NCBI GenBank assembly: GCA_016187515.1
Contig: JACPJN010000009.1
Span: forward strand, 68,891 to 132,890
Length of the DNA stretch: 64,000 nt
From: Candidatus Uhrbacteria bacterium
GTDB taxonomy: Bacteria; Patescibacteriota; Patescibacteriia; GWA2-47-26
Direction of reading: 5' to 3'
Shown: positions 8,019 through 30,188 of the stretch, one piece after another
How positions within the stretch are numbered: position 1 is the first letter of the stretch
Layout of the letters: each line of letters begins with the position of its first letter
The notes under the pieces: model-generated
What the model saw: only the letters and a program-made list of their open reading frames with translations
Told to the model about the DNA's origin: nothing
Databases searched by the model: none
Position numbers and translations under genes: made by a program

Positions 8019-8705
8019 ATGCAATTTCCTCCTCCCATCACCCGTCTGATCCAGCATTTCCGCGCGCTCCCCGGCGTGGGCCCGCGCACGGCCGCGCGTT
8101 TTGTATTCGCGCTATTAAACAAACCCGAAGATGAACTGCGTTCCTTTGGCCATGCCCTGGTTGATCTTAAAGAAAGCATCCGCGTGTGCAAAGCATGTTT
8201 CAACGTATCGCTGGCAAATCCCTGCCAAATTTGCGCGGATCCCAATCGCGATGCCGCCGCGCTTTGCGTGGTCGCCCGACCGCAAGATATCCAAGCCCTT
8301 GAAGAAACCCGGGAATATCATGGTCTCTATCACGTCTTGGGTGGGACGCTTAATCCGATTGAGGGCGTAACGCCGGAACAATTGCGGATTAAGGAATTGC
8401 TGAATAGAATTGATAATCCGCCGCTCCCACCCCTCCTAACCTCCCCTCGGGCAGGGGAGGAAAACGATCGTATTTCTCCCCCTTTTCAAGGGGGAGTTAG
8501 AGGGGGTCAAGACATCCAGGAAATCCTCCTCGCCTTAAACCCGGACCTGGAAGGCGAGGCCACCGCGCTTTACCTGGCCAAACTTCTTAAAGCCCGCGTG
8601 CCGCGCGTCACGCGGCTGGCCCGCGGACTGCCCCAAGGCGCGGACCTGGAATACGCCGACGAGGTAACGCTCATCAACGCGATAAAAGGACGAAGGGAAA
8701 TATGA
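8019..8705 (+). CDS. recR: recombination protein RecR, with an in-frame element
   Basis: MQFPPPITRLIQHFRALPGVGPRTAARFVFALL (HhH), C4 zinc finger CKACFNVSLANPCQIC and Toprim; track ORF starts at 7992 but the RecR alignment favours 8019. Confidence 0.88.
   Translation: MQFPPPITRLIQHFRALPGVGPRTAARFVFALLNKPEDELRSFGHALVDLKESIRVCKACFNVSLANPCQICADPNRDAAALCVVARPQDIQALEETREYHGLYHVLGGTLNPIEGVTPEQLRIKELLNRIDNPPLPPLLTSPRAGEENDRISPPFQGGVRGGQDIQEILLALNPDLEGEATALYLAKLLKARVPRVTRLARGLPQGADLEYADEVTLINAIKGRREI
8423..8508. mobile_element. GC-rich MITE-like element (CTCCCACCCC family), in frame in recR
   Basis: Hairpins CCTCCCCTCGGGCAGGGGAGG and CTCCCCCTTTTCAAGGGGGAG; encodes NPPLPPLLTSPRAGEENDRISPPFQGGVRGGQD. 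Confidence 0.8.
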
Positions 8706-9547
8706 AAGAGGATATTTTACACAATCGTGGTTTCATAACACTCCTCGAGGAATTAGGACTATCCGGAAATGAGATAAAATGCTATTTAGCAACATTGGGC
8801 TTGAACTCCGCAACCGTTGCTGAAATTTCAAGCCACGCGGCAGTAAATCGCGTCAATGCCTACAGCGCAGTCAAGAAACTTCTTGAACATGGTCTTTTGG
8901 AACAAGAGATAACTCCAAAAGGACGGCGTATCCGTCCCGCCCCGTTTGACGCGCTTCAGGAACTTGCCCAAAGTTACCAAAAGCATGCTACTCGCCTACG
9001 CTGGAAGATGGAAGATCTAATCAAAGAATTGACTGACCAGCGCGCGCAAAACAATCCGTCACAACCAACGATAATGGGTGAAGTGCTTTTTTTCAGGGGT
9101 GAAGATGCGTTCTACCAAATTGCCGAGCGCACTCTCGCAATACCACCGGGATCGGAGGTCTGCATCCTGGAAGCGTTTGACTATTTTACCCCGCCGGACA
9201 ATCCTACCTATGATGACGAATACTATATCCCAGCGCGTTTAAATCGCGGGGTTTCGGCGCGCATACTCCATCGTCCGGACGAACATGGCCGAGCGTTGCG
9301 CGCCCGCGATCATAAAGAACACCGCGAAACGCGCTTCCTGCCGACTAACATGAATTTTCCGTGCTCCATGTATATTTACGGCGATGAAGTGGCGCTGGTG
9401 TGGACCACTGATCATGTGGTGGGATTGGCCGTACGCGGCGGACCGCTCACGACCTTGATGCGGGCGATGTTTGAGCAATATTGGAAAGCGGCGGCAGCGG
9501 GAAACCTATACCGGGACGCAAAAAACGCGCCTAAAAGTGAGTTGTAA
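8702..9547 (+). CDS. TrmB-like winged-HTH transcriptional regulator with an uncharacterised C-terminal domain (paralog 1)
   Basis: N-terminal LLEELGLSGNEIKCYLATLGLNSATVAEIS...LLEHGLL HTH; ATGA overlap with the recR stop; paralog of 14187..15125 (shared RETRFLP...YIYG.EVA motif). Confidence 0.65.
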   Translation: MKEDILHNRGFITLLEELGLSGNEIKCYLATLGLNSATVAEISSHAAVNRVNAYSAVKKLLEHGLLEQEITPKGRRIRPAPFDALQELAQSYQKHATRLRWKMEDLIKELTDQRAQNNPSQPTIMGEVLFFRGEDAFYQIAERTLAIPPGSEVCILEAFDYFTPPDNPTYDDEYYIPARLNRGVSARILHRPDEHGRALRARDHKEHRETRFLPTNMNFPCSMYIYGDEVALVWTTDHVVGLAVRGGPLTTLMRAMFEQYWKAAAAGNLYRDAKNAPKSEL

Positions 9548-9560
9548 TTCTACAATACTA

Positions 9561-9588
9561 CCGCGCGAAAGCGCGGATTTGCTTTTAA
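9561..9588 (+). terminator. intrinsic terminator
   Basis: CCGCGCGAAAGCGCGG hairpin followed by ATTTGCTTTT. Confidence 0.6.
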
Positions 9589-9737
9589 ATAAGCGAGAAT
9601 TTCTCTCCTATTGTTCCGTTCATCGCAAAAACTTTGACACTGCACTGCCATACCGCCAAACTAGAGGTAGATGGGGGTAAACGCCTATCTTTCTCCATCG
9701 GCATGGTGCTGTATGGAATATACCAAAGGAGGACGTC

Positions 9738-11072
9738 ATGTCGTACCTTTACAAAGTACTGTTCGTTTTCATGCTCGTCGGCGGATGCGGCGGAGTTGAG
9801 GAAGAAATTGATGGAGAAGGTTGGCAACGTGATCCGCTCGGAACTACTGAGAACCTGGTTTCTACGTGCGAGGAGTGCACCAATGTAGTCGCGATTGCGG
9901 TTGCAGCAACAATCGCCGCGGGATACGTTATCGGCCCGGGAGACGAGGCAACCGCTATATTTATGGGATTCGTTGCCTACCAACTCGTGACTCTCCAAAT
10001 TCCCGTCGAGTACGTTGCACAAGCTATACCCATCGCAATACAGCTTATCACCAATGGATTACGTGATGTCGTCGCGGTCATCTCCATGGCGCTATGTCGC
10101 GATACGCTGGCACTCTGTGAACCAATCCCGACACTGGATGAAACCGATTCGTCGGAAGATGTGGCGGTCGAACTCCAACCATGCACACCGAACTGGTCAT
10201 GCAACGCCTGGAGTGAGTGTGTGTTTCCGGGATTCCGCAGCCGCCTTTGTACAGATCTTGCCGGATGCGCGGGAACACCCCCGGTCGGCGCCACCTCAAC
10301 CACGCAAACCGAGCCGTGCGATCCTTGCGGCAATGGTTCGTGCGAGGACGGCGAAACCTGCACGAGTTGTCCGGCTGACTGCGGCACATGTCCCCCGCCG
10401 ACTTGCACACCGGCATGGAGCTGCAGCGGATGGTCAGCATGCTCATGTTCTGGCACCAGAACACGCACCTGCGCCGATCTCAATTCTTGCGGCACTGCCA
10501 CGGGACGCCCATCCATTACCTCTAGATGCGTGGTCTGTGGCAATGGCTCGTGCGATTGCGGCGAAACCTGCGCGAGTTGCTCTGGTGACTGCGGCGTTTG
10601 TCCGCCGCCGCCCTCTTGCACTTGCGCCGATGGGGATCGCGACGGACACTATGATCCGACCCGGTGCGGCGATTCCCGGTGCTCTCCTCGCGATGACTGC
10701 AACGACAGCAACGCGGCAATCTATGCCGGGGCGCCCGAGATCTGCAACGGCCTGGATGATAACTGTAATGGCACTGTTGACGAAAGTGGCGTATGTCCGC
10801 CGCCTGATCCAGAACCAGATCCTCCGGGGACCGGTGAAATTTGCGGTAACGACACGGACGACAATGGCAACGGCGACCCCTGGGACGGCTGCGAATGCCG
10901 CCCAATCTACGGCCAAAGTACGCGCTGTGTTGACGGGCGCTACTATGAGGCGTGCAATCGCGGCAACTGGCGCCGCGATAATGACTGCCTGGAATTCTGG
11001 CAATGTCCAGGGCGCGGCATCTGCGTCTTCCTGACCCGGCCGGATCCTTACGCCCAGTGTATTTGTCCCTGA
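9738..11072 (+). CDS. Cys-rich secreted putative lipoprotein with repeated CxPxWSC / CGNGSCExGETCxSCxxDCGxCPPP modules and a MopE-like putative metal-binding motif
   Basis: Signal peptide MSYLYKVLFVFMLVGGCGG with lipobox-like VGGC; strong SD AAAGGAGGA; DCNDSNAAIYAGAPEICNGLDDNCNGTVDE resembles the Myxococcus-type putative metal-binding repeat. Confidence 0.6.
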   Translation: MSYLYKVLFVFMLVGGCGGVEEEIDGEGWQRDPLGTTENLVSTCEECTNVVAIAVAATIAAGYVIGPGDEATAIFMGFVAYQLVTLQIPVEYVAQAIPIAIQLITNGLRDVVAVISMALCRDTLALCEPIPTLDETDSSEDVAVELQPCTPNWSCNAWSECVFPGFRSRLCTDLAGCAGTPPVGATSTTQTEPCDPCGNGSCEDGETCTSCPADCGTCPPPTCTPAWSCSGWSACSCSGTRTRTCADLNSCGTATGRPSITSRCVVCGNGSCDCGETCASCSGDCGVCPPPPSCTCADGDRDGHYDPTRCGDSRCSPRDDCNDSNAAIYAGAPEICNGLDDNCNGTVDESGVCPPPDPEPDPPGTGEICGNDTDDNGNGDPWDGCECRPIYGQSTRCVDGRYYEACNRGNWRRDNDCLEFWQCPGRGICVFLTRPDPYAQCICP

Positions 11073-11094
11073 AGTGCTTTTGCGAGTCCTTTCG

Positions 11095-11128
11095 CGGGAC
11101 GCGGAACCAACCTCCGCCATCCCGCTTT
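11095..11128 (+). terminator. intrinsic terminator
   Basis: GCGGGACGCGGAACCAACCTCCGCCATCCCGC hairpin followed by TTTTTTAA. Confidence 0.65.
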
Positions 11129-11147
11129 TTTAATAGGGAAATATAAA

Positions 11148-11180
11148 AAACAAGCGGTGTCCTCTCCACACCGCTTACGA
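11148..11180 (-). terminator. intrinsic terminator (convergent partner)
   Basis: Minus strand AAGCGGTGTGGAGAGGACACCGCTT hairpin followed by GTTTTTT. Confidence 0.6.
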
Positions 11181-11194
11181 ACAATAATCGCCTT

Positions 11195-11989
11195 TCACTG
11201 TGGCGCGCTGAAGTTCGGACCGGGCCAGTACCAGTCCGTCCCCAGGGCGTTTTCTCGGAGTATTCCTTGCGTCTGAAGCGCGCGCATAATCCGCGCGGTC
11301 TCGGAGCTGATCCAATCCGAGGATTGCGCGACAACGTGCGTCCTAATCAATTCCGCAAGGTCCCGACCGTTCAGGGGCCAGGTAATCTCCCCGCTTTTCG
11401 CGAGCTTGCGAAGATCCTCACAGACCAGCGTAAACGCATCGGCTACCCGGTGCTCAATTCGGGGCAACTCTTGCGGATCCGCCAATCTTGGCCCGGGCTG
11501 CGGAACCAATTTTGCGGTAGGGGCGGCCGCAGCACCTTCCGCCGCTTCGCTTGCCTTTCGCGGCCGCCCCCGCTTCCTGGCGCGCACCCCTTGACGAATT
11601 GCCTCCGCCAATGCGGGCGCGCTTACGCCGGCTTGAAAGACCTCTTCAAAAAGCGAGGCCGTGAGCGGATGCAGAGGATCGCCCGGCTGCTCACACACAA
11701 ACAAAGCGCCCTTTTGAATCAGATCCTCAACAATGGCCTGCGCAATTGTATATTCCGCGCCAGCGGTCTCCCTGGTCGCCCGCGCCACCGCTTGAATTAC
11801 TTCCTCCCGCGGCGCCGGCCAGCGCCGAATGAATCGCAGTTCATTCAGCGCGTCGCGCATTATCTCATCGCGCCCCATTATGTCACGCAGGTCCCTCGCC
11901 AACGCCTCTGCTCCGGGGTTGGTGTCATTCATGGTGTCATTCATGGTGAACCTCGGCGTAATTTGGTTGGAAATGAACAAACCACCCAC
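11195..11989 (-). CDS. hypothetical protein with an AT-hook-like RKRGRPRK segment
   Basis: 264-aa ORF downstream of the graspetide operon; no family recognised; the start could be the MNDTMNDT repeat at about 11944. Confidence 0.5.
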   Translation of the reverse strand: MGGLFISNQITPRFTMNDTMNDTNPGAEALARDLRDIMGRDEIMRDALNELRFIRRWPAPREEVIQAVARATRETAGAEYTIAQAIVEDLIQKGALFVCEQPGDPLHPLTASLFEEVFQAGVSAPALAEAIRQGVRARKRGRPRKASEAAEGAAAAPTAKLVPQPGPRLADPQELPRIEHRVADAFTLVCEDLRKLAKSGEITWPLNGRDLAELIRTHVVAQSSDWISSETARIMRALQTQGILRENALGTDWYWPGPNFSAPQ

Positions 11990-12115
11990 ATCATAATACC
12001 GCGCTTAAGAAAAGTCAAACCCGCCGTTATTGAAGAGTATGCAAAAACCGATAGGCATAGCAAAAAAAGTGGCCATCGCGGGGATGACCACTGGGGGCGG
12101 TTGCTGACGACCGAG

Positions 12116-12265
12116 TTACCGGTCGATCCAGCCGGGCTTCCGCTCGCGCTTGCAGTTGGGACAGCAGGGATAACCGGTGTTCTCCCGGCATGCCTGCCTG
12201 CCGTGCCTGCGGCAACCTTCGCACAGGCCGGTCCCGTTGCACTGACTGCAGATTTCTCGGGCCAT
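12116..12265 (-). CDS. 49-aa Cys-rich peptide (8 Cys, two CxxCxGxG-type motifs)
   Basis: MAREICSQCNGTGLCEGCRRHGRQACRENTGYPCCPNCKRERKPGWIDR preceded by a strong SD ACAAGGAGAAAG; the track ORF (to 12424) contains it. Confidence 0.6.
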   Translation of the reverse strand: MAREICSQCNGTGLCEGCRRHGRQACRENTGYPCCPNCKRERKPGWIDR

Positions 12266-12320
12266 GTTCTTTCTCCTTGTTTTGCGCTCAATGAGCGCGT
12301 TATTCCGCGGATTCCTCGCG

Positions 12321-12527
12321 CTACGGCCCGCCTTCGTCGCCGGTCCAAGGCGTATAGTCGCTGCGCGTGTTGTCCTGCCCCCCGATCGTGAATCCATCAA
12401 GCGAGTGGTGGGCTTCGAGCACACACCGCTGCTCCCGCGGGTCGTAGATGCACGCGGGTTTTACCGGAGTGGGCAGGACCTCTCCGAAGTGAAGCGAGAA
12501 GGGTTTTGTGGTTTCTGTGATTGGCAT
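12321..12527 (-). CDS. graspetide precursor peptide B (leader PFSLHFGEV; core ...GFTIGGQDNTRSDYTPWTGDEGGP)
   Basis: 68 aa; SD AAAGGAGAAA 6 nt upstream; leader motif KPFSLHFGEVLP...YDP..Q.C is paralogous to precursor A and resembles the microviridin PFFARFL leader; C-terminus rich in Thr/Ser and Asp/Glu. Confidence 0.7.
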   Translation of the reverse strand: MPITETTKPFSLHFGEVLPTPVKPACIYDPREQRCVLEAHHSLDGFTIGGQDNTRSDYTPWTGDEGGP

Positions 12528-12548
12528 GTGGATTTCTCCTTTTTGTGG

Positions 12549-12782
12549 CTAGTCGTTACGCGTAACATACTGATCGTCGTAGTCCTCGTAGCCGGTTAGT
12601 CCACTGTAGGATGTGGTACTGTTCTGGAACGACTGACTCTTCATGGTACCGGCAAAGAGCTCTCCTCCTTCCTCGCACTGGGTTACCGGATCGTACCGAT
12701 GCGTCGGCGCCGGCATCGGTTCCACCGCTTCCATGAAGTGGAAGAGGAAAGGACGCCGTGGGTTCGCGTTCGTCGCGTTCAT
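12549..12782 (-). CDS. graspetide precursor peptide A (leader PFLFHFMEAV; core ...STTSYSGLTGYEDYDDQYVTRND)
   Basis: 77 aa; RRPFLFHFMEAVEP...YDPVTQC leader paralogous to peptide B; C-terminal Thr/Ser plus Asp/Glu-rich core. Confidence 0.7.
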   Translation of the reverse strand: MNATNANPRRPFLFHFMEAVEPMPAPTHRYDPVTQCEEGGELFAGTMKSQSFQNSTTSYSGLTGYEDYDDQYVTRND

Positions 12783-12794
12783 TGTTGACCCCGT

Positions 12795-13031
12795 TCAGTC
12801 CGCTGATGCGGCATCGAGGAAGTCAAGATGCCCGCTTCCTCCGCAGCGCCCACATTCCGCGCTCTCGGTGCTCTGGCTTCGGATAACATACTCGGATTGT
12901 TTGCGGGAGATGCGACCGAGCCCTGCGCACGTCGGGCACTTGTATCTCCCGCGATCAGGACACCCGGAATCCTGACACAGTTTCAACGGCGGTCCAAAGG
13001 GGTTGAACGCAGCGATGATTTTTCCGATCAT
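12795..13031 (-). CDS. 78-aa Cys-rich zinc-ribbon-like peptide (CxxxxC, CPTCAGLG, CGRCGGSG)
   Basis: ATG at 13031 overlaps the ATP-grasp stop (ATGA coupling); the track gives a GTG start at 13052; contains an FNPFGPP motif. Confidence 0.55.
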   Translation of the reverse strand: MIGKIIAAFNPFGPPLKLCQDSGCPDRGRYKCPTCAGLGRISRKQSEYVIRSQSTESAECGRCGGSGHLDFLDAASAD

Positions 13032-14026
13032 GTTGCACCTCCTTGTTTCCACGCAAGAAGCTCAACCAACGCATCCGTCATTGGAAGCTTTGTGAGCTCC
13101 TCAAGCCAAAGCCATTGACCGTTAGGGTTGATTTCAAGAAACACCCACTCACCGTCCGGAGTAAAGATAAGATCAATCGCCCCGAAATTGAGTCCGTATC
13201 GGCGCACCATCTCACGACAACGCGCCTCCACTTCAGATGGCAAGGTAATCGCGCTGTGTAGGGTATGCTCAAAGTCATAGTGACGCCAATCGATCCTTGT
13301 CTTCTCGCTTTCCTGCGAGTCAATCCGCACCGCGAACACCTTATCTCCGATGATCGTTACCCGCGCCTCGTACTGCTTATCCACATACTGCTGGAACAAG
13401 TGCGGCGCAAAACGAATCGTGTCTGCATGCGAAAGAGCATCTTCGCCCACCACGCTCGTGAAAATCGCCGTATCCAGCGGAATCGTCGCCGGCCCACGGC
13501 CAGCGATTTTCACGATCACGCGCCCCTGATGCGCACTCCAAAATCCGCGAAACGTTTCCGGATTGTTGGTGACAAGCGTCTCGGGCGTCTGAAATCCCAG
13601 TTCACGCGCGAGCATGAGCTGGTGCAGTTTGTATTGTGCGGCGTGAAGCGCGTCTGGATGACTGACCCAGACGATGTCCGAAAGACACCTATACAGTCCT
13701 TGCAGGACGTAATGGCACTCGTCGCGCACAAAGGTCTGGACACCAGCGTCAACGATCTCGTCATGAACGACTGCATCCGAAGGCCGCCGATACCAACACG
13801 ATCGAATACAATCCGGCGTCAGCGTGCGCCCGTGATAGCGCAGTTCCCATTGTTCACCACGCCATTCAACCATGATCTCGCGCGGTAAATCCTCGGTATT
13901 GAGACGAAATACCGGAATGTCGCGCTCGTTGAATACTTTGATTACACGACTCGCATGCTCATCGTAACGGTTCGTTACGATAAGCACCGTATCCCGTGCT
14001 CTCATGATTTCTCCTTGGTTTGTCAA
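13028..14026 (-). CDS. ATP-grasp ribosomal peptide maturase (MdnC/MvdD microviridin-type ligase family)
   Basis: 332 aa; TVLIVTNRYDEH, FRLNTEDLP, WYRRP, ETLVTNNPE, FTSVVGEDAL, RVTIIGDKVFAVRIDSQ...IDWR, LNFGAIDLIFTPDGEWVFLEINPNGQWLWLE align block-by-block with MdnC as I recall it; SD AAGGAGAAATC. Confidence 0.85.
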   Translation of the reverse strand: MTNQGEIMRARDTVLIVTNRYDEHASRVIKVFNERDIPVFRLNTEDLPREIMVEWRGEQWELRYHGRTLTPDCIRSCWYRRPSDAVVHDEIVDAGVQTFVRDECHYVLQGLYRCLSDIVWVSHPDALHAAQYKLHQLMLARELGFQTPETLVTNNPETFRGFWSAHQGRVIVKIAGRGPATIPLDTAIFTSVVGEDALSHADTIRFAPHLFQQYVDKQYEARVTIIGDKVFAVRIDSQESEKTRIDWRHYDFEHTLHSAITLPSEVEARCREMVRRYGLNFGAIDLIFTPDGEWVFLEINPNGQWLWLEELTKLPMTDALVELLAWKQGGAT

Positions 14027-14046
14027 AGAGCGGAATGCTCTTCAAC
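14017..14046. promoter_or_regulatory. conserved 28-bp palindromic motif TTGTCAAAGAGCGGAATGCTCTTCAACT immediately upstream of the ATP-grasp SD
   Basis: AAGAGC-GGAAT-GCTCTT inverted repeat; a near-identical copy (1 mismatch) lies at about 36937-36967 upstream of another minus-strand operon. Confidence 0.6.
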
Positions 14047-14186
14047 TGTTGCAGGTGTTTCAGCCCTTGTCTTTCCTTATCATCCTTCTTCGCGCCGATG
14101 AAACATAGATACAAGGAAAGACAACGAGTGAAAACGAAAATCCACCGAAACTTTCCGGTGGACTCTCAAGAAACTATCTCCCTTTT

Positions 14187-15125
14187 TCATTTTTTCTTTT
14201 TCTCCCTCGACTTTCCGGCCATCTGCCAGGCCATTTCGAAAAGAAGTTTCATCACTTCGAAGACCGGACCGCCGCGCACTATCAAGCCAACCATCTCTCC
14301 TCCTTTCCAGGCAAACGCGACCTCCTTGCCATAAATATATACCGCGCACGCGAAATGCAGATCCGGGGGCAAATAACGTGTTTCTCGATTTTCCTTTTTA
14401 TCGCGCTCGTGAAGACGCGCCGCAAAGAGTTCGCGGGCATGAAGACACCGCGCCTTGATTCCACGCTTCACCCGTTCCGGAATGTAAATCATCTCGTCGT
14501 AATCCGGATCATTGGCAGGATGAAAAAAATCCGTCGCCTCAATATAATAGTTTGTCGATCCCGCCGGCACGTCTAAGCTTCGCTCCGCTATCCGCTCCAT
14601 CACTTCATCACCGCGCAAAACCATCAACCCTTCAAAATTCACTCGCGAAGTTCCTTCCTGATCACCGGCACAGGCCAACAATTTAGGAATAATATCCTCA
14701 ATCCGCCAGCGTACCTTGGTGGCGAACTTTTGATGTCCTTGCGCGAGCGCTTGAAGATTTTCAAGCGGTGCAGGATATATCAGACGACTGGCGCGCATCC
14801 CTTCCTGCACGATCAATCCCTGTTCAACCAGTCGCTTAATTGCTCCATACGCATTAACCCGATGTACATGCGCGCGCCGCGCAACATTGTTGATATTCGC
14901 CGGACCTAAACTTAGGGATGCCAGATAGCACTTTACTTCATTCCTTGAGAGACCTAATTTTTCAAGGAGCGCGATAATGCTCCGATCGCGCATGAGGTCT
15001 TCAGTTTCTGGCGTTTTGTTTTTCCGGACTATTGAAGTATTATCGTCTGCCATAAGCGTATGATAGCGCGGGATACTAGTCAAAATTTTTGCTGCCCAAT
15101 TCCTTAGTGGCCAGCCAAAGCCCAA
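14187..15125 (-). CDS. TrmB-like winged-HTH transcriptional regulator (paralog 2); likely start at about 15053 (MADDN) or 14993
   Basis: IIALLEKLGLSRNEVKCYLASLSLGPANINNVARRAHVHRVNAYGAIKRLVEQGLI HTH; C-terminal domain homologous to 8702..9547; the start at 15125 is TTG in the track. Confidence 0.65.
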   Translation of the reverse strand: MGFGWPLRNWAAKILTSIPRYHTLMADDNTSIVRKNKTPETEDLMRDRSIIALLEKLGLSRNEVKCYLASLSLGPANINNVARRAHVHRVNAYGAIKRLVEQGLIVQEGMRASRLIYPAPLENLQALAQGHQKFATKVRWRIEDIIPKLLACAGDQEGTSRVNFEGLMVLRGDEVMERIAERSLDVPAGSTNYYIEATDFFHPANDPDYDEMIYIPERVKRGIKARCLHARELFAARLHERDKKENRETRYLPPDLHFACAVYIYGKEVAFAWKGGEMVGLIVRGGPVFEVMKLLFEMAWQMAGKSREKKKK

Positions 15126-15338
15126 TAGCCACGGAGAAATTTAACCCTTATGGTTGTAGTATAGCATGCTACAACAGTGATATACAAAAGCGGTGCGCTC
15201 TTTTTGAACGCACGCGCCAACTGCGCCCCAATTCGGGCGTCTAGGGATTAGTAGTAAAGGACCCCGTGGCAAGCCACGGGGCATTGAATGGAGCGAGCTA
15301 CGCTCGCTCATACGCCCCGACCGCGGTCGGGGCGGCAT

Positions 15339-15728
15339 TCAACCTTTGATCCCGCGGCGTTCGTCGGAAATGTCCTCCGATCGGAATCGGAGTCCATTTC
15401 TCGCCTCACTTGCGGGAGTAATTTTTTCAATCCTTACCTTAGTAAACTCTTGCCGATGTCCTTTTTTCCTCTTGTACCGCACCTTGCGCTTGTATTTGAT
15501 AACCGTTACTTTCGGCGCCCGCCCCTGCTCTAAAATCGCGGCCTCAACTTTTGCGCCGGCCACGGTTGGCGTTCCCACTTTCACTTCCCCGCCATTGGCA
15601 TCGCCCATCAGCAATACCTGATCAAACACCGCCTGATCACCTTGATTTCCGGGCAGCTTTTCTACTTTAAGAATCGTCCCCGCTTGCACAATATACTGTT
15701 TCCCTCCGGTTTTGATGACAGCGATCAT
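15339..15728 (-). CDS. rplU: 50S ribosomal protein L21 (with a C-terminal extension of about 25 aa)
   Basis: MIAVIKTGGKQYIVQAGTILKVEKL...KVTVIKYKRKVRYKRKKGHRQEFTKV; the track ORF extends to 15851 but M at 15728 matches the L21 N-terminus. Confidence 0.85.
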   Translation of the reverse strand: MIAVIKTGGKQYIVQAGTILKVEKLPGNQGDQAVFDQVLLMGDANGGEVKVGTPTVAGAKVEAAILEQGRAPKVTVIKYKRKVRYKRKKGHRQEFTKVRIEKITPASEARNGLRFRSEDISDERRGIKG

Positions 15729-25900: not shown

Positions 25901-26119
25901 TTATGGTTCCTCCATCGCGCGCGTCTTAGTGAGGAAACACCCTCGACACTCGCAATACGGGTCATCGGAATCATGACCGACTGGCGGATCCGGCGGATAA
26001 GGGGTTCCACAGTGGTCGCACCGACGGCGATGGCCCATCGCCACTGTTCCCTCGCACATGTACGCACCGCACGTGCACTGCGTAAAACGGCCCTCTTGCC
26101 TGCACTTCGGACATTTCAT
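25901..26119 (-). CDS. small zinc-ribbon protein (MKCPKCRQ...CDHCGTPY...CECRGC)
   Basis: 72 aa with four CxxC pairs; the track ORF extends to 26203. Confidence 0.5.
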   Translation of the reverse strand: MKCPKCRQEGRFTQCTCGAYMCEGTVAMGHRRRCDHCGTPYPPDPPVGHDSDDPYCECRGCFLTKTRAMEEP

Positions 26120-26183
26120 GGTTTTTCTCCTTACTCCATCTATAGCATGCCCCTGATCCACGTTTGCGTCAAGGGCGACAAAA

Positions 26184-26312
26184 GAGACCGTTGCAAAACT
26201 CAATTTTTGTCATCCCCGCGAACGCGGGGATCCAGAAATTCCAGTGAATCGTAGATTCCCGCTTCCGCGGGAATGACAGAGGAGGGCAATTTAAGAGTTT
26301 TGCAACGGTCTC
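26184..26312. mobile_element. MITE-like foldback element with perfect 18-bp TIR GAGACCGTTGCAAAACTC
   Basis: Left TIR at 26184-26201 and right TIR GAGTTTTGCAACGGTCTC at 26295-26312; internal hairpins GTCATCCCCGCGAACGCGGGGAT and ATTCCCGCTTCCGCGGGAAT superficially resemble CRISPR repeats, but there is no array. Confidence 0.75.
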
Positions 26313-29540: not shown

Positions 29541-29777
29541 TCACATCCTGTCCATATCCCCAAACGGACAGATCCAACTGCAGCAAGGACAGGTCTCGGT
29601 GTGCACATAGCCGCAGGATTTGCAATTCTCTTCCTTGGCTGGCCGCACAAGGCGGTAGAGAACCCAACCGAGAATCACTGCGCCGACCCACACGATCGCG
29701 AGTAATTCAATAAATGGACCGAGAATCACGAGAACTCCATCCAGTATCTTAACTGTGAAGCGTTTCACGGTGTTCAT
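29541..29777 (-). CDS. small membrane protein with a C-terminal Cys cluster (CKSCGYVHTETCPCCSWICPFG)
   Basis: MNTVKRFTVKILDGVLVILGPFIELLAIVWVGAVILGWVLY...; the track ORF 29541..29939 has a spurious N-terminus that translates the terminator cassette. Confidence 0.45.
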   Translation of the reverse strand: MNTVKRFTVKILDGVLVILGPFIELLAIVWVGAVILGWVLYRLVRPAKEENCKSCGYVHTETCPCCSWICPFGDMDRM

Positions 29778-29887
29778 GTCAATGTACCTCCTAAAGTACA
29801 TTGAACCACCGTATTCTACGGGTGTCAAATCCGCCCAAACCGGGTTACGTTCAGCATAAATTCCGATCACGGCGCGCGCATCGGTAA

Positions 29888-29925
29888 ACAAAAACGACCC
29901 GCCCTGGGGAGCGGATCGGACCAAA
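29888..29925 (-). terminator. conserved terminator cassette copy
   Basis: AAAAACGACCCGCCCTGGGGAGCGGATCGGACC 3' of the 29967..30188 gene. Confidence 0.65.
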
Positions 29926-29966
29926 GAACAATACGGCACGCGCGCAAACCGGGCGCTGGATTGCGC

Positions 29967-30188
29967 CTAGTCGTCAGGGGGCGTGACATCCACCTCTTCA
30001 CTGCGGCCGCACCGTTTGCAAACATAGGTACGTATCACCTCGACGTTGCGACACAGCTCGCAAGAGCACTGACCGGGCTCCGGCGTCAGCTCGCCGCCGG
30101 GAAGCGGCCGCTCCTCATCACAATCCTCTCCGGTCCCCATCTCTTGCCCATCGTGCGGCTTCTCTTGGGTTCCGTAACACGTTGGCAT
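29967..30188 (-). CDS. small acidic Cys-containing protein
   Basis: 73 aa with CxCxxC...CxxC; no family recognised. Confidence 0.4.
   Translation of the reverse strand: MPTCYGTQEKPHDGQEMGTGEDCDEERPLPGGELTPEPGQCSCELCRNVEVIRTYVCKRCGRSEEVDVTPPDD

What the first reader, a model, noticed from the sequence alone, without database searches (positions are those of the whole stretch)
11195..15125. Graspetide (microviridin-like) RiPP biosynthetic cluster with two paralogous precursors and TrmB-like regulators
The minus-strand operon encodes an ATP-grasp ligase that aligns block-by-block with MdnC/MvdD ribosomal-peptide maturases (TVLIVT, WYRR, TNNPE, IDWR, NFGAIDLIFTPDGEWVFLEINPNGQWLWLE). Two small ORFs with strong SDs follow. 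Their leaders share PF(L/S)(F/L)HF.E(A/V) ... YDP..Q.C, reminiscent of the microviridin PFFARFL recognition motif. Their C-terminal cores are rich in Thr/Ser and Asp/Glu (STTSYSGLTGYEDYDDQY; TIGGQDNTRSDYTPWTGDEG), as needed for omega-ester/amide macrolactone formation. Unusual extras are two small Cys-rich CxxCxGxG zinc-ribbon-like peptides, one translationally coupled to the ligase by an ATGA overlap. A TrmB-like HTH regulator sits immediately upstream and a paralog lies 5 kb away next to a Cys-rich lipoprotein, and there is a conserved palindromic motif in the ligase 5' UTR. This peptide/leader family and its gene context are not ones I recognise from described graspetide groups.
Basis: partly seen in the sequence, partly recalled or inferred. 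Interest (0 to 1): 0.85.

Follow-up and report, generated by a model that had tools for sequence, protein, structure and literature searches.

The report
Graspetide peptide gene cluster in Uhrbacteria
A candidate-phylum (Uhrbacteria) bacterium carries a small operon predicted to make two ring-closed ribosomal peptides (graspetides), a known kind of natural product, but here with rare new peptide sequences and an unusual, conserved escort of tiny zinc-finger proteins whose role is unknown.

Summary
On the minus strand, 14005..12116 forms one operon. It holds an ATP-grasp ligase of the RiPP-maturase clade, a 78-aa DnaJ-like CxxCxGxG protein joined to it by an ATGA overlap, two paralogous precursors and a 49-aa Cys-rich protein. 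A TrmB-like regulator lies upstream and a terminator downstream. The graspetide reading is supported. The ligase matches TIGR04187, MvdC and MvdD models full-length (E 4e-83 to 3e-60, against RimK 2e-10). Both precursors share the leader PF-L-F-E...YDP--Q and carry Ser/Thr plus Asp/Glu cores.

About 12 related metagenomic loci (ligase 57-85% identical) keep the same architecture, and all four small ORFs show more synonymous than non-synonymous codon differences. It is not a microviridin cluster. The leader type is generic, shared with graspetide precursors of other phyla, and graspetide clusters in candidate phyla were reported in 2022.

The clade-specific features are the two core families (13 hits among 1.84 billion representative proteins), the TrmB-like regulator and the small zinc-ribbon ORFs. 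Those ORFs occur in 9 of 13 clade loci against 3 of 78 others. Every relative of the DnaJ-like protein whose contig I examined lies beside such a ligase. Their function is untested. The 249-aa ORF at 11195..11944 is a separate unit.

Verdict: new variant of a known kind, moderate interest.

The parts
14187..15053 (-). TrmB-like transcriptional regulator (288 aa from ATG 15053; the ORF is open to TTG 15125). It has an N-terminal winged helix-turn-helix and an uncharacterised C-terminal domain of about 180 aa.
   Evidence: PF01978 TrmB at 1.9e-11, 44.1 bits, above the 25.6 cutoff. Homologues adjoin the ligase in L001, L003, L081, L083/84, L086, L087, L088 and L091. Among the first 80 loci, the only matches were in L001-L003, and the L002 match was weak.
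14135..14168 (-). Hairpin H1: a terminator-like stem-loop with a T-run just after the regulator's stop (GAGAGTCCACCG...CGGTGGATTTTCGTTTT).
   Evidence: Terminator scan. Sequence and pairing are kept in L086 and L001.
14058..14133 (-). Hairpin H2 in the ligase 5' region: 21-nt arms, 18 of 21 complementary, with a 34-nt loop.
   Evidence: the repeat finder I1. L086 and L001 have a hairpin at the same place with different sequence. The whole intergenic consensus structure has 4 compensatory pairs, from only 3 sequences. No Rfam family matches.
14026..14042 (-). Palindrome H3 (AAGAGC-N5-GCTCTT) just 5' of the ligase SD. It could be an operator or an RNA hairpin.
   Evidence: Read from the sequence. 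It falls in the conserved block CGCTCTTTGACAA shared with L086 and L001.
13028..14005 (-). ATP-grasp graspetide ligase (325 aa; NCBI MBI2552685.1), with an AAGGAG SD.
   Evidence: PF21068 at 7.8e-10. TIGR04187 at 4.2e-83 over residues 13-324, MvdC at 2.3e-68, MvdD at 3e-60. PDB hits: MdnB 5ig8 3.8e-46, AMdnB 7m4s, MdnC 5ig9, CdnC 7mgv.
12795..13031 (-). Z1: a 78-aa DnaJ-like zinc-finger protein. It has a hydrophobic N-terminus and two CxxCxGxG motifs, and is translationally coupled to the ligase by an ATGA overlap. It is not annotated in the NCBI record.
   Evidence: PF00684 at 8e-5 to 1.5e-4, below the cutoff. 5 of 6 family members hit PF00684 and 4 of 6 hit Anti-TRAP. The relatives traced to contigs all lie beside the clade's ligase. 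Against the L091 copy there are 33 synonymous and 17 non-synonymous codon differences.
12549..12782 (-). Precursor A (77 aa). Leader: PFLFHFME...P.PAP...YDPVTQ. Core: ...GTMKSQSFQNSTTSYSGLTGYEDYDDQYVTRND.
   Evidence: Nine orthologues are aligned, with the core T..SxQNxT..YS..TGYEDxDDxYxT..D conserved. There is a weak TIGR04186 hit on the leader at 0.011. Codon differences are 28 synonymous to 15 non-synonymous. NCBI annotates a truncated 61-aa version lacking the PFLFHF motif.
12321..12527 (-). Precursor B (68 aa). Leader: PFSLHFGE...P.C.YDPREQRC. Core: ...T.GGQDNTRSDYTPWTGDEGGP. It has a strong SD.
   Evidence: Five orthologues show invariant PF, C-x-YD, EQRC and YTPWT..E. Codon differences are 26 synonymous to 18 non-synonymous.
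12116..12265 (-). Z3: a 49-aa protein with 9 Cys (CSQCNGTGLCEGC...CCPNC) and a strong SD. It is not annotated in the NCBI record.
   Evidence: An orthologue in L088 is 42 of 49 identical, with 14 synonymous and 7 non-synonymous codon differences.
12068..12092 (-). Terminator-like hairpin with a T7 run that ends the ligase operon.
   Evidence: Terminator scan.

Best explanation
This is a compact graspetide (omega-ester RiPP) biosynthetic operon of a Candidatus Uhrbacteria bacterium.

**Shown by sequence**
- There is a single MdnB/MdnC-type ATP-grasp ligase.
- Two paralogous precursors share one leader (PF-L-F-E, then P...P...YDP--Q) but have two different, strongly conserved C-terminal cores.
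- A pathway-linked TrmB-like regulator lies upstream.
- Two small zinc-finger-type proteins share the transcript with the ligase.

**Inferred from characterised graspetide ligases (MdnC, PsnB, ThfB)**
- The ligase docks on the leader motif.
- It phosphorylates Asp/Glu side-chain carboxylates of the core with ATP.
- Ser/Thr hydroxyls attack, giving several macrolactone rings.
- No Lys is conserved in either core, so esters rather than amides are expected.
- Core A offers the invariant E-D-x-D-D block and about five conserved Ser/Thr. Core B offers (D/E)Y..YTPWT.(D/Q)E.
- One enzyme serving two cores through a shared leader is usual for this class.

**Zinc-finger proteins**
These are a clade-specific accessory. 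My preferred reading is that they bind the ligase or the precursor as a non-catalytic partner or holdase. Inside a ligase operon, and frequently start-stop overlapped with the ligase gene, is where every copy I examined sits. This step is inference only.

**Still open**
No protease or exporter is encoded nearby, so leader removal and export are unresolved.
For: **Ligase class**
- PF21068 scores above its cutoff. Full-length matches run from 4e-83 to 3e-60 to the three ATP-grasp RiPP-maturase models, against 2e-10 for RimK.
- Solved-structure relatives are MdnB, AMdnB, MdnC and CdnC.

**Precursors**
- The leader has invariant positions across 14 sequences, and the cores are conserved.
- Five of 14 give a weak TIGR04186 leader hit.
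- Synonymous codon differences exceed non-synonymous ones.

**Operon structure**
- SDs, the ATGA overlap and the flanking terminator-like hairpins support a single transcript.

**Conserved architecture**
- About 12 independent loci with ligase 57-85% identical keep the arrangement.

**Zinc-ribbon linkage**
- 9 of 13 clade loci, with 14 ORFs in total, carry same-strand ORFs with at least two CxxC motifs near the ligase. Only 3 of 78 non-clade loci do.
- The window background is 3 such ORFs in the remaining 62 kb.
- A profile search of 5.8 billion proteins found about 8 real Z1 relatives. All those I traced to contigs sit beside the clade's ligase.
- The ORF after the ligase overlaps its stop in the window, L081, L085, L088 and L002.

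**Precedent**
- Partner-protein-dependent graspetide synthetases exist (PMC13097080).
Against: - No chemistry has been observed: no dehydrations, no ring map, no expression data.
- All ligase and precursor model scores lie below the curated NCBIfam cutoffs (279 against 350; 15.8 against 25).
- The partner idea for the zinc-finger proteins is weakened by their replaceability.
  - Loci whose ligases are 80-84% identical to the window's (L086, L088) carry an unrelated CPxC...CPxGH zinc ribbon in Z1's position.
  - L003, L087 and L089 have the precursor directly after the ligase.
  - An obligatory, co-evolved subunit is therefore unlikely.
- AlphaFold gave no usable model of Z1, with pLDDT 44.
- The absence of a protease or transporter leaves the final product undefined.
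Confidence: 0.8

Rival explanations
1. The small DnaJ-like zinc-ribbon proteins are themselves substrates: a second class of modified peptides or mini-proteins made by the cluster, not helpers.
For: Type II pamtide precursors are small DnaJ-type zinc ribbons (CxxCxGxG_D_CxxCxGxG) that serve as RiPP substrates (PMC10787088). Z1 members are precursor-sized at 51-78 aa. Some carry Ser/Thr/Asp/Glu in the hairpin between the two CxxCxGxG motifs.
Against: They lack the PF-L-F-E/YDP leader that all 14 precursors share. No residue between the Cys motifs is conserved across the family. No PIMT-type methyltransferase appeared among the operon ORFs or the ten flanking ORFs scanned. Translational coupling to an enzyme gene is atypical for a precursor.
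Confidence: 0.08
2. The zinc-ribbon proteins are regulators. They would be Anti-TRAP-like small proteins that bind and switch off the TrmB-like regulator, or the ligase, giving feedback control of the operon.
For: Four of 6 Z1 members, and the L091 63-aa copy, give weak Anti-TRAP (PF15777) hits at 2.6e-4 to 0.013. Anti-TRAP is a stand-alone DnaJ-type zinc-finger protein that acts by binding a regulator (established knowledge). The TrmB-like gene and the zinc-ribbon ORFs are both specific to this clade.
Against: All hits are below Pfam cutoffs and reflect the shared CxxCxGxG motif. L089 keeps a TrmB-like gene without any zinc-ribbon ORF, while L085 has a zinc ribbon and no TrmB-like gene called within about 4 kb upstream.
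Confidence: 0.12
3. The zinc-ribbon ORFs are functionally unrelated small genes, or self-protection or other fast-evolving cargo, that merely share the transcript. The working cluster would be just regulator, ligase and precursors.
For: At least four unrelated Cys-rich families (Z1, CPxC..CPxGH, CxQCNGTG..CCPNC, RCxNC..CGxC) swap in and out among close relatives. Three loci lack one directly after the ligase. Minimal ligase-plus-precursor clusters are common (groups 27, 28 and 35 in PMC13097080).
Against: Enrichment is strong: 9 of 13 against 3 of 78. Every Z1 relative traced to a contig is located in these operons. Coding sequence is under purifying selection. Start-stop overlap with the ligase recurs.
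Confidence: 0.2
4. The ATP-grasp enzyme is not a peptide macrocyclase but a RimK- or glutathione-synthetase-type ligase, and the small ORFs are incidental.
For: Weak partial matches to RimK (2.2e-10), MptN and glutathione synthase models, as expected for any ATP-grasp fold.
Against: These are 50-70 orders of magnitude weaker than the RiPP-maturase matches and cover only the C-terminal half. The MvdD-specific pre-ATP-grasp domain is present. Conserved leader/core precursors follow the gene in all related loci.
Confidence: 0.02

Closest known systems
Graspetide clusters of candidate-phyla-radiation bacteria (Makarova et al. 2022, PMC8939145, ATP-grasp branches 1 and 2)
   Same: The host group is the same (Patescibacteria/CPR). 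Both have a single MvdD-type ligase with adjacent small precursors carrying the 'Phhx(1,2)h' leader signature and Thr/Asp-rich cores. Tandem divergent precursor paralogs also occur there.
   Different: None of that study's 174 precursor clusters contains the YEDYD or TPWTG core strings, and no Uhrbacteria appear in its supplements. Its typical companions are the cluster-23 lipoprotein, TPR proteins, SPASM enzymes and peptidases. It lists no TrmB-like regulator or small zinc-ribbon protein.
Carter et al. 2026 RODEO graspetide groups (PMC13097080), notably group 43 (Microcoleus) and the DUF6624-associated candidate-phyla type (group 42)
   Same: The group 43 representative precursor shares the leader, PFTLSFVE...SYDPETQT...YAGT (hhalign probability 82%). 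The nearest non-clade ligases, about 45% identical, include a DUF6624-associated locus (L090) whose precursor has the same leader type.
   Different: The cores differ. Group 43 co-occurs with a PF01637 ATPase and group 42 with DUF6624, and neither is present here. I could not test SSN group membership because the deposited table is truncated in the held copy.
Fuscimiditide and the TIGR04187/TIGR04186 (SAV_5884-type) clusters of Actinomycetota
   Same: TIGR04187 is the best-scoring curated ligase model, and there is a weak TIGR04186 hit on the leader. Both have a single ligase, a conserved P-F leader element (RPFG in ThfA) and no dedicated protease or transporter in the cluster (10.1101/2021.05.19.444834).
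   Different: Scores are below the family cutoffs (279 against 350; 15.8 against 25). There is no PIMT-type O-methyltransferase, so no aspartimide step is expected. The leader is much shorter, about 40 aa against 67 aa.
Microviridin biosynthesis (MdnB/MdnC = MvdC/MvdD)
   Same: The ATP-grasp fold family is the same and these are the best solved-structure relatives (E 4e-46 to 8e-42). The N-terminal P-F-hydrophobic leader motif is analogous to PFFARFL.
   Different: There is one ligase rather than two. No Lys is conserved, so no lactam is expected. There is no TxKYPSDWEE core and no GNAT or ABC transporter. Scores reach about half the equivalog cutoffs.
Partner-protein-dependent graspetide synthetases (rosaritide MirB/MirC, PMC13097080)
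   Same: It is a precedent that a small or non-catalytic protein strictly co-occurring with a graspetide ligase can be needed for its stability and activity.
   Different: That partner is a PpiC-like protein (TIGR04500) that is strictly conserved in its group. Here the candidates are zinc-finger mini-proteins of several unrelated families, and they are not universally present.
Stand-alone DnaJ-type zinc-finger proteins (B. subtilis Anti-TRAP; plant BSD2/ZnJ2; pamtide type II precursors, PMC10787088)
   Same: Z1 has the two CxxCxGxG motifs that form one zinc centre, and it is of similar size.
   Different: Pfam scores are below threshold. Z1 has an N-terminal hydrophobic segment, and it lacks the central conserved Asp of pamtide type II precursors. 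Its genomic context, a graspetide operon, is not reported for any of these.

Membership tests
Graspetide (ATP-grasp-modified RiPP) biosynthetic cluster | ATP-grasp ligase with the MvdD-type pre-ATP-grasp domain and full-length similarity to RiPP maturases, clearly better than to RimK or GshB | tested here: met
   PF21068 scores 39.3 bits, above the 27 cutoff. TIGR04187 4.2e-83, MvdC 2.3e-68, MvdD 3e-60, against RimK 2.2e-10. PDB relatives are MdnB, MdnC and CdnC.
Graspetide (ATP-grasp-modified RiPP) biosynthetic cluster | Adjacent precursor gene or genes with a conserved leader and a C-terminal core holding Ser/Thr (or Lys) donors and Asp/Glu acceptors | tested here: met
   Two precursors follow the ligase in the operon. 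The leader has invariant P, F, P, Y, D and Q, and the cores are conserved across 14 sequences or more. The leader fits the published Phhx(1,2)h signature.
Graspetide (ATP-grasp-modified RiPP) biosynthetic cluster | Side-chain omega-ester or omega-amide macrocycles in the product | not testable with these tools
   This needs co-expression and mass spectrometry or NMR.
Microviridins (graspetide group 1) | Two dedicated ligases (MvdC- and MvdD-type equivalogs) | tested here: not met
   The window holds a single ligase (tblastn). It scores 230.7 against a cutoff of 425 and 204.1 against 475.
Microviridins (graspetide group 1) | PFFARFL leader and TxKYPSDWEE(Y/F) core | tested here: not met
   The leaders are PFLFHFME and PFSLHFGE. 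The cores are ...TGYEDYDDQY... and ...YTPWTGDE..., with no conserved Lys.
TIGR04187/TIGR04186 SAV_5884-type (graspimiditide-type) clusters | Ligase and precursor above the curated NCBIfam cutoffs | tested here: not met
   The ligase scores 279.1 against 350. Precursor A scores 15.8 against 25, and only 5 of 14 precursors hit at E<=1.
TIGR04187/TIGR04186 SAV_5884-type (graspimiditide-type) clusters | Co-encoded PIMT-type O-methyltransferase (TIGR04188) | tested here: not met
   No methyltransferase hit among the seven cluster-region ORFs or the ten flanking ORFs scanned. The rest of the window was not scanned.
Partner-protein-dependent graspetides (rosaritide type, group 21) | PpiC-like partner (TIGR04500) beside the ligase | tested here: not met
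   No such hit. The co-transcribed small proteins are zinc-finger type instead.
Partner-protein-dependent graspetides (rosaritide type, group 21) | Ligase activity or stability depends on the partner | not testable with these tools
   This needs biochemistry. The AlphaFold model of Z1 alone was unusable, pLDDT 44.
DnaJ-type zinc finger (PF00684), for Z1 | Paired CxxCxGxG motifs | tested here: met
   CPTCAGLG and CGRCGGSG are present. The second motif is invariant in the family alignment.
DnaJ-type zinc finger (PF00684), for Z1 | Score above the Pfam gathering threshold | tested here: not met
   It scores 22-26 bits against 32.7. Five of 6 members hit, with a best E of 1e-6.
TrmB family regulators | N-terminal TrmB winged-helix DNA-binding domain | tested here: met
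   PF01978 scores 44.1 bits in the cluster copy and 41.8 bits in the paralog, above the 25.6 cutoff.
TrmB family regulators | TrmB-type C-terminal sugar-sensing domain or equivalog-level similarity | tested here: not met
   No Pfam hit on residues about 115-288. NCBIfam TrmB/TrmBL1 score 15-18 bits against cutoffs of 500-650. PDB gives only weak MarR/SlyA HTH hits.
Pamtide type II precursors | CxxCxGxG_D_CxxCxGxG with an invariant central Asp, plus an adjacent PAMT methyltransferase | tested here: not met
   No invariant Asp lies between the motifs. No methyltransferase is in the operon.

The most novel reading that the evidence does not exclude
Small zinc-finger mini-proteins may be an integral part of graspetide maturation in this Uhrbacteria lineage. 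This covers the DnaJ-like Z1 family and its interchangeable zinc-ribbon substitutes. They would act either as ligase- or precursor-binding partners and holdases, made in fixed ratio with the ligase through translational coupling, or as a second leaderless substrate class. Either would be a mode of graspetide biosynthesis not yet described. It would also give a functional role to a family of tiny genes that standard annotation misses entirely, since neither is called in the NCBI record.
Probability: 0.3. Interest if true: 0.7.

Novelty: new variant of a known kind. Interest (0 to 1): 0.48.

Why it matters
Graspetides are a growing source of protease inhibitors and constrained peptide scaffolds. 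Their presence in ultra-small, host-dependent candidate-phyla bacteria raises the question of what such reduced genomes use them for.

This locus adds two rare, well-defined core families. An exhaustive search of 1.84 billion representative proteins found 13 hits, about ten of which are precursor-sized. A minimal five-gene operon should also be easy to reconstitute in E. coli.

The conserved zinc-finger mini-proteins offer a direct test of whether partner dependence, first shown for graspetides in 2026, extends to a different kind of partner.

The locus is also a warning for genome mining. The public annotation truncates precursor A so that the recognition motif is lost, and it omits both zinc-finger ORFs.

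Tried and rejected
1. **AlphaFold2 of Z1** with a 7-sequence alignment gave mean pLDDT 44 and pTM 0.25. The model was unusable, so I ran no fold search.
2. **Rfam scan of 11000..15400** returned only a chance microRNA-type hit at E 0.28 on hairpin H2. The 5' hairpins are not a known RNA family.
3. **PDB sequence search with the TrmB-like protein** gave only weak MarR/SlyA HTH hits, so the C-terminal domain stays unassigned.
4. **Placing the ligase in the published group numbering failed.** The accession MBI2552685, 'Uhrbacteria' and the core strings are absent from the held supplements of PMC13097080, but the main table is truncated there, so this is inconclusive. Group 27 (Acidobacteriota and candidate phyla) was considered and dropped because its representative precursors (…LARMQARVL…GG…) are unrelated.
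5. **Makarova's cluster 342**, tandem paralogous precursors in WWE3, was considered as the same family and rejected because the sequences are unrelated.
6. **The 249-aa ORF at 11195..11944** was considered as a cluster member and rejected. It has its own promoter-like site and terminator, no Pfam family beyond an AT-hook-like RKRGRPRK, and no homologue in related loci.
7. **The TrmB paralog and Cys-rich lipoprotein at 8702..11072** were considered as part of the cluster. Nothing links them apart from paralogy, and no such pair adjoins the related loci, so they are left out.
8. **A B-specific role for Z1**, such as handling the two invariant leader Cys of type B, was rejected because A-only loci (L003, L081) also carry Z1-type ORFs.

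Full report
**Anatomy**

I read the minus strand of 11100..15400. The genes run in this order.

- **TrmB-like gene**, 15053..14187 (ATG start; the ORF stays open to TTG 15125).
- **A 181-nt spacer.**
- **ATP-grasp gene**, ATG 14005..13028, behind AAGGAG.
- **Z1**, a 78-aa Cys-rich ORF at 13031..12795. Its ATG overlaps the ligase TGA as ATGA, behind AAGGAGGTG.
- **Precursor A**, 12782..12549, 77 aa, with only a weak GGGG Shine-Dalgarno (SD) sequence.
- **Precursor B**, 12527..12321, 68 aa, behind AAAGGAG.
- **Z3**, a 49-aa ORF with nine Cys at 12265..12116, behind AAGGAG.

The consensus scan finds terminator-like hairpins on this strand at three places. One lies at 14168..14135, just after the regulator. 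One lies at 12092..12068, just after Z3. One lies at 11178..11150. A promoter-like TTGACT-17-TATGAT sits at 12018..11990.

The biosynthetic transcript is therefore 14005..12116. It matches only an AT-hook-like RKRGRPRK and has no counterpart in related loci.

**The enzyme**

- Pfam gives the MvdD pre-ATP-grasp domain PF21068 above its cutoff.
- NCBIfam gives end-to-end matches to TIGR04187 (4.2e-83), MvdC (2.3e-68), MvdD (3e-60) and the grasp-with-spasm maturase (8e-35). RimK scores 2e-10 and glutathione synthase about 0.03.
- All of these scores are below the curated cutoffs, so this is a relative of those families and not an equivalog.
- Among solved structures the best matches are MdnB 5ig8 (3.8e-46), AMdnB 7m4s, MdnC 5ig9 and CdnC 7mgv.
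- The refutation condition 'falls outside the RiPP-maturase clade' is not met.

**Origin and relatives**

The ligase is identical to MBI2552685.1 of a Candidatus Uhrbacteria MAG. Fifteen 90%-cluster representatives share 52-85% identity with it. They separate from everything else by single linkage at 50% identity or more. At 45-48% they merge into a large multi-phylum set of candidate phyla, Chloroflexota, Acidobacteriota and Actinomycetota. The ligase is a sub-clade of a broad family, not a deep new branch.

**Conservation of the cluster**

I retrieved about 12 independent loci of this clade: L001-L003, L081-L089 and L091-L093. Their ORFs were read.

A TrmB-like gene adjoins the ligase in L001, L003, L081, L083/84, L086, L087, L088 and L091. 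In a BLAST of the first 80 loci the only matches lay in the three clade loci L001-L003, and the L002 match was weak.

Every locus with sequence downstream of the ligase encodes a type A precursor, a type B precursor or both.

- **Shared leader (14 sequences).** It reads PF(L)L-F-E ... P ... P ... YD(P)--Q, with P, F, P, Y, D and Q invariant.
- **Type A core.** (A/C/G)G-T-R--S-QN-T(S)-YS--TGYED-DD-Y-T--D.
- **Type B core.** It keeps C-x-YDP-x-EQRC in the leader and T...(D/E)Y(T/S)-(D/G)YTPWT-(D/Q)E in the core.

Codon comparison with the nearest relatives shows more synonymous than non-synonymous differences for all four small ORFs. These are real genes under purifying selection.

| ORF | Synonymous | Non-synonymous |
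|---|---|---|
| Precursor A | 28 | 15 |
| Precursor B | 26 | 18 |
| Z1 | 33 | 17 |
| Z3 | 14 | 7 |

**How new are the precursors?**

The leader is not new.

- An HMM of the 14 precursors finds leader-only matches beside more distant ligases in Saccharibacteria (L021), Ryanbacteria (L009), Acidobacteriota (L014, L062, L071) and others.
- Five of 14 precursors weakly hit TIGR04186.
- hhalign aligns the leader with the group 43 representative of Carter et al. 2026 (probability 82%). It also aligns with the precursor of a DUF6624-associated candidate-phyla locus (75%).
- The leader fits the 'Phhx(1,2)h' signature of Makarova et al. 2022.

The cores are rare.

- A profile search of 5.8 billion proteins gave 13 clusters.
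- An exhaustive HMMER search of 1.84 billion representatives gave 13 hits at E<=1e-3 and 7 at E<=1e-10. About ten of the 13 are precursor-sized. Of the seven hits I retrieved, six are further type A variants and the weakest is an unrelated repeat protein.
- The strings YEDYD and TPWTG do not occur in the 174 curated precursor clusters of Makarova et al., and no Uhrbacteria are listed there.
- The held copy of Carter et al.'s table is truncated, so absence there is inconclusive.

**The zinc-finger mini-proteins**

Z1 has two CxxCxGxG motifs and a hydrophobic N-terminus. It scores below the cutoff on DnaJ_CXXCXGXG, as do 5 of 6 family members. Four of 6 also touch Anti-TRAP.

Relatives occur in L001/L092, L003, L081, L083 (two copies) and L091 (two copies). 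L002 and L085 carry longer proteins that combine a zinc ribbon with DnaJ-like motifs.

The slot is not fixed. In L081, L086 and L088 the position after the ligase holds an unrelated CPxC...CPxGH ribbon. This is so even though the L086 and L088 ligases are 84% and 80% identical to the window's. Z3 recurs in L088. A fourth family (RCxNC...CGxC) occurs in L083 and L086. L003, L087 and L089 have the precursor directly after the ligase.

The association with the clade is nevertheless strong.

- Same-strand small ORFs with at least two CxxC motifs near the ligase occur in 9 of 13 clade loci (14 ORFs). They occur in 3 of 78 non-clade loci.
- The whole 64-kb window has only five such ORFs in six frames, two of them in the operon.
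- A Z1 profile finds about eight true relatives in 5.8 billion proteins. All those I traced to contigs lie beside the clade's ligase.
- The ORF after the ligase overlaps the ligase stop in the window, L081, L085, L088 and L002.

Neither survey of graspetide-associated genes lists such proteins or TrmB. Both surveys rely on annotated or HMM-detectable genes, and NCBI annotates neither ORF here.

**Precedents**

- A graspetide ligase that needs a co-occurring partner protein (PMC13097080).
- DnaJ-type zinc-ribbon peptides acting as RiPP substrates, the type II pamtides (PMC10787088).
- Anti-TRAP as a regulator-binding zinc-finger protein (established knowledge).

The evidence shows linkage but does not decide between a partner, a regulator, a substrate or dispensable cargo. 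Replaceability argues against an obligatory co-evolved subunit. AlphaFold of Z1 was uninformative.

**Regulatory region**

The TrmB-ligase spacer holds three hairpins: H1 (terminator-like), H2 (21-nt arms) and H3 (AAGAGC-N5-GCTCTT next to the SD). L086 and L001 keep hairpins at the same three positions. H1 keeps its sequence, while H2 has a different sequence in each. The consensus structure has four compensatory pairs, but it rests on three sequences only. No Rfam family matches.

Whether it is a terminator or attenuator, an operator or an RNA element is open.

**Context**

The ORFs I scanned include no protease, ABC exporter or methyltransferase.

The window holds one ligase, two precursors and one Z1. 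The TrmB paralog (8702..9547, 45% identical) follows recR and precedes a 444-aa Cys-rich putative lipoprotein. Only the paralogy ties it to the cluster.

**Mechanism and verdict**

The following are shown:

- gene identities at family level;
- operon layout;
- conserved leader and cores;
- purifying selection on the small ORFs;
- clade-specific co-occurrence of the accessory genes.

The following are inferred:

- The leader docks on the ligase.
- ATP-dependent acyl-phosphate formation on core Asp/Glu is followed by attack from Ser/Thr hydroxyls.
- This would give multiple macrolactones in two different products from one enzyme.
- No Lys is conserved, so esters are expected.
- The conserved (A/C/G)G|T junction before core A may be a double-glycine-like cleavage site, although no C39 transporter is nearby.

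This is a graspetide cluster, a known kind already reported from candidate phyla. Its new features are two core families and an undescribed, conserved accessory set. I rate it a new variant of a known kind, with interest about 0.5.

Noticed in passing
window 11195..11944 (-): A 249-aa ORF with an AT-hook-like RKRGRPRK and no other family match. It has its own promoter-like site (12018..11990) and terminator (11178..11150).
   Followed up: partly
window 8702..9547 (+) and 9738..11072 (+): A second TrmB-like regulator, 45% identical to the cluster's, whose start overlaps the recR stop. It is followed by a 444-aa Cys-rich putative lipoprotein (LVGGC lipobox-like N-terminus) with internally repeated CTPxWSC...C and CGNGSC...CPPP modules and a MopE metal-binding motif (PF11617, 1.2e-12).
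   Followed up: partly
window 14006..14186 (-); L086 1490..1670; L001 5835..6010: Three hairpins in the regulator-ligase spacer are kept at the same positions in three loci. The middle one has a different sequence in each (covariation). There is a conserved GGCTGAAA box, and no Rfam family matches.
   Followed up: partly
window 12549..12782, 12795..13031, 12116..12265 (-): The public annotation (NCBI MBI25526xx series) starts precursor A at an internal Met, giving 61 aa and losing the PFLFHF recognition motif. It does not call either zinc-finger ORF. Only the Logan assemblies' gene calls include them.
   Followed up: yes
window 12321..12527 (-) and type B orthologues in L001, L083, L086, L088, L091: Type B precursors carry two invariant Cys bracketing the second leader element (C-x-YDP-x-EQRC), nine residues apart. 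This could be a leader disulfide or a metal site. Type A has no fixed Cys.
   Followed up: no
window 12640..12660 (-) region of precursor A and orthologues: A conserved (A/C/G)G followed by Thr marks the start of the conserved type A core. It resembles a double-glycine-type leader cleavage site, yet no C39 peptidase/ABC transporter appeared among the flanking ORFs scanned.
   Followed up: no
window 25901..26203, 29541..29939, 29967..30188 (all -): These are the only other small ORFs in the window with two or more CxxC motifs. They may be further zinc-ribbon mini-proteins, and I did not examine them.
   Followed up: no
L001 (CAZBFB010000007.1): This contig is labelled 'uncultured Gammaproteobacteria' but carries the Uhrbacteria-type cluster. 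It is near-identical in gene content to L092, including the downstream nusA. Mis-binning or a wrong taxonomic label is likely.
   Followed up: no
L087 2336..2704: In one related locus the precursor is followed by a 122-aa protein with an N-terminal CGPHCNGCSSC motif and a C-terminal Gly-rich hydrophobic segment that is probably membrane-spanning. This is another, different Cys-rich companion.
   Followed up: no
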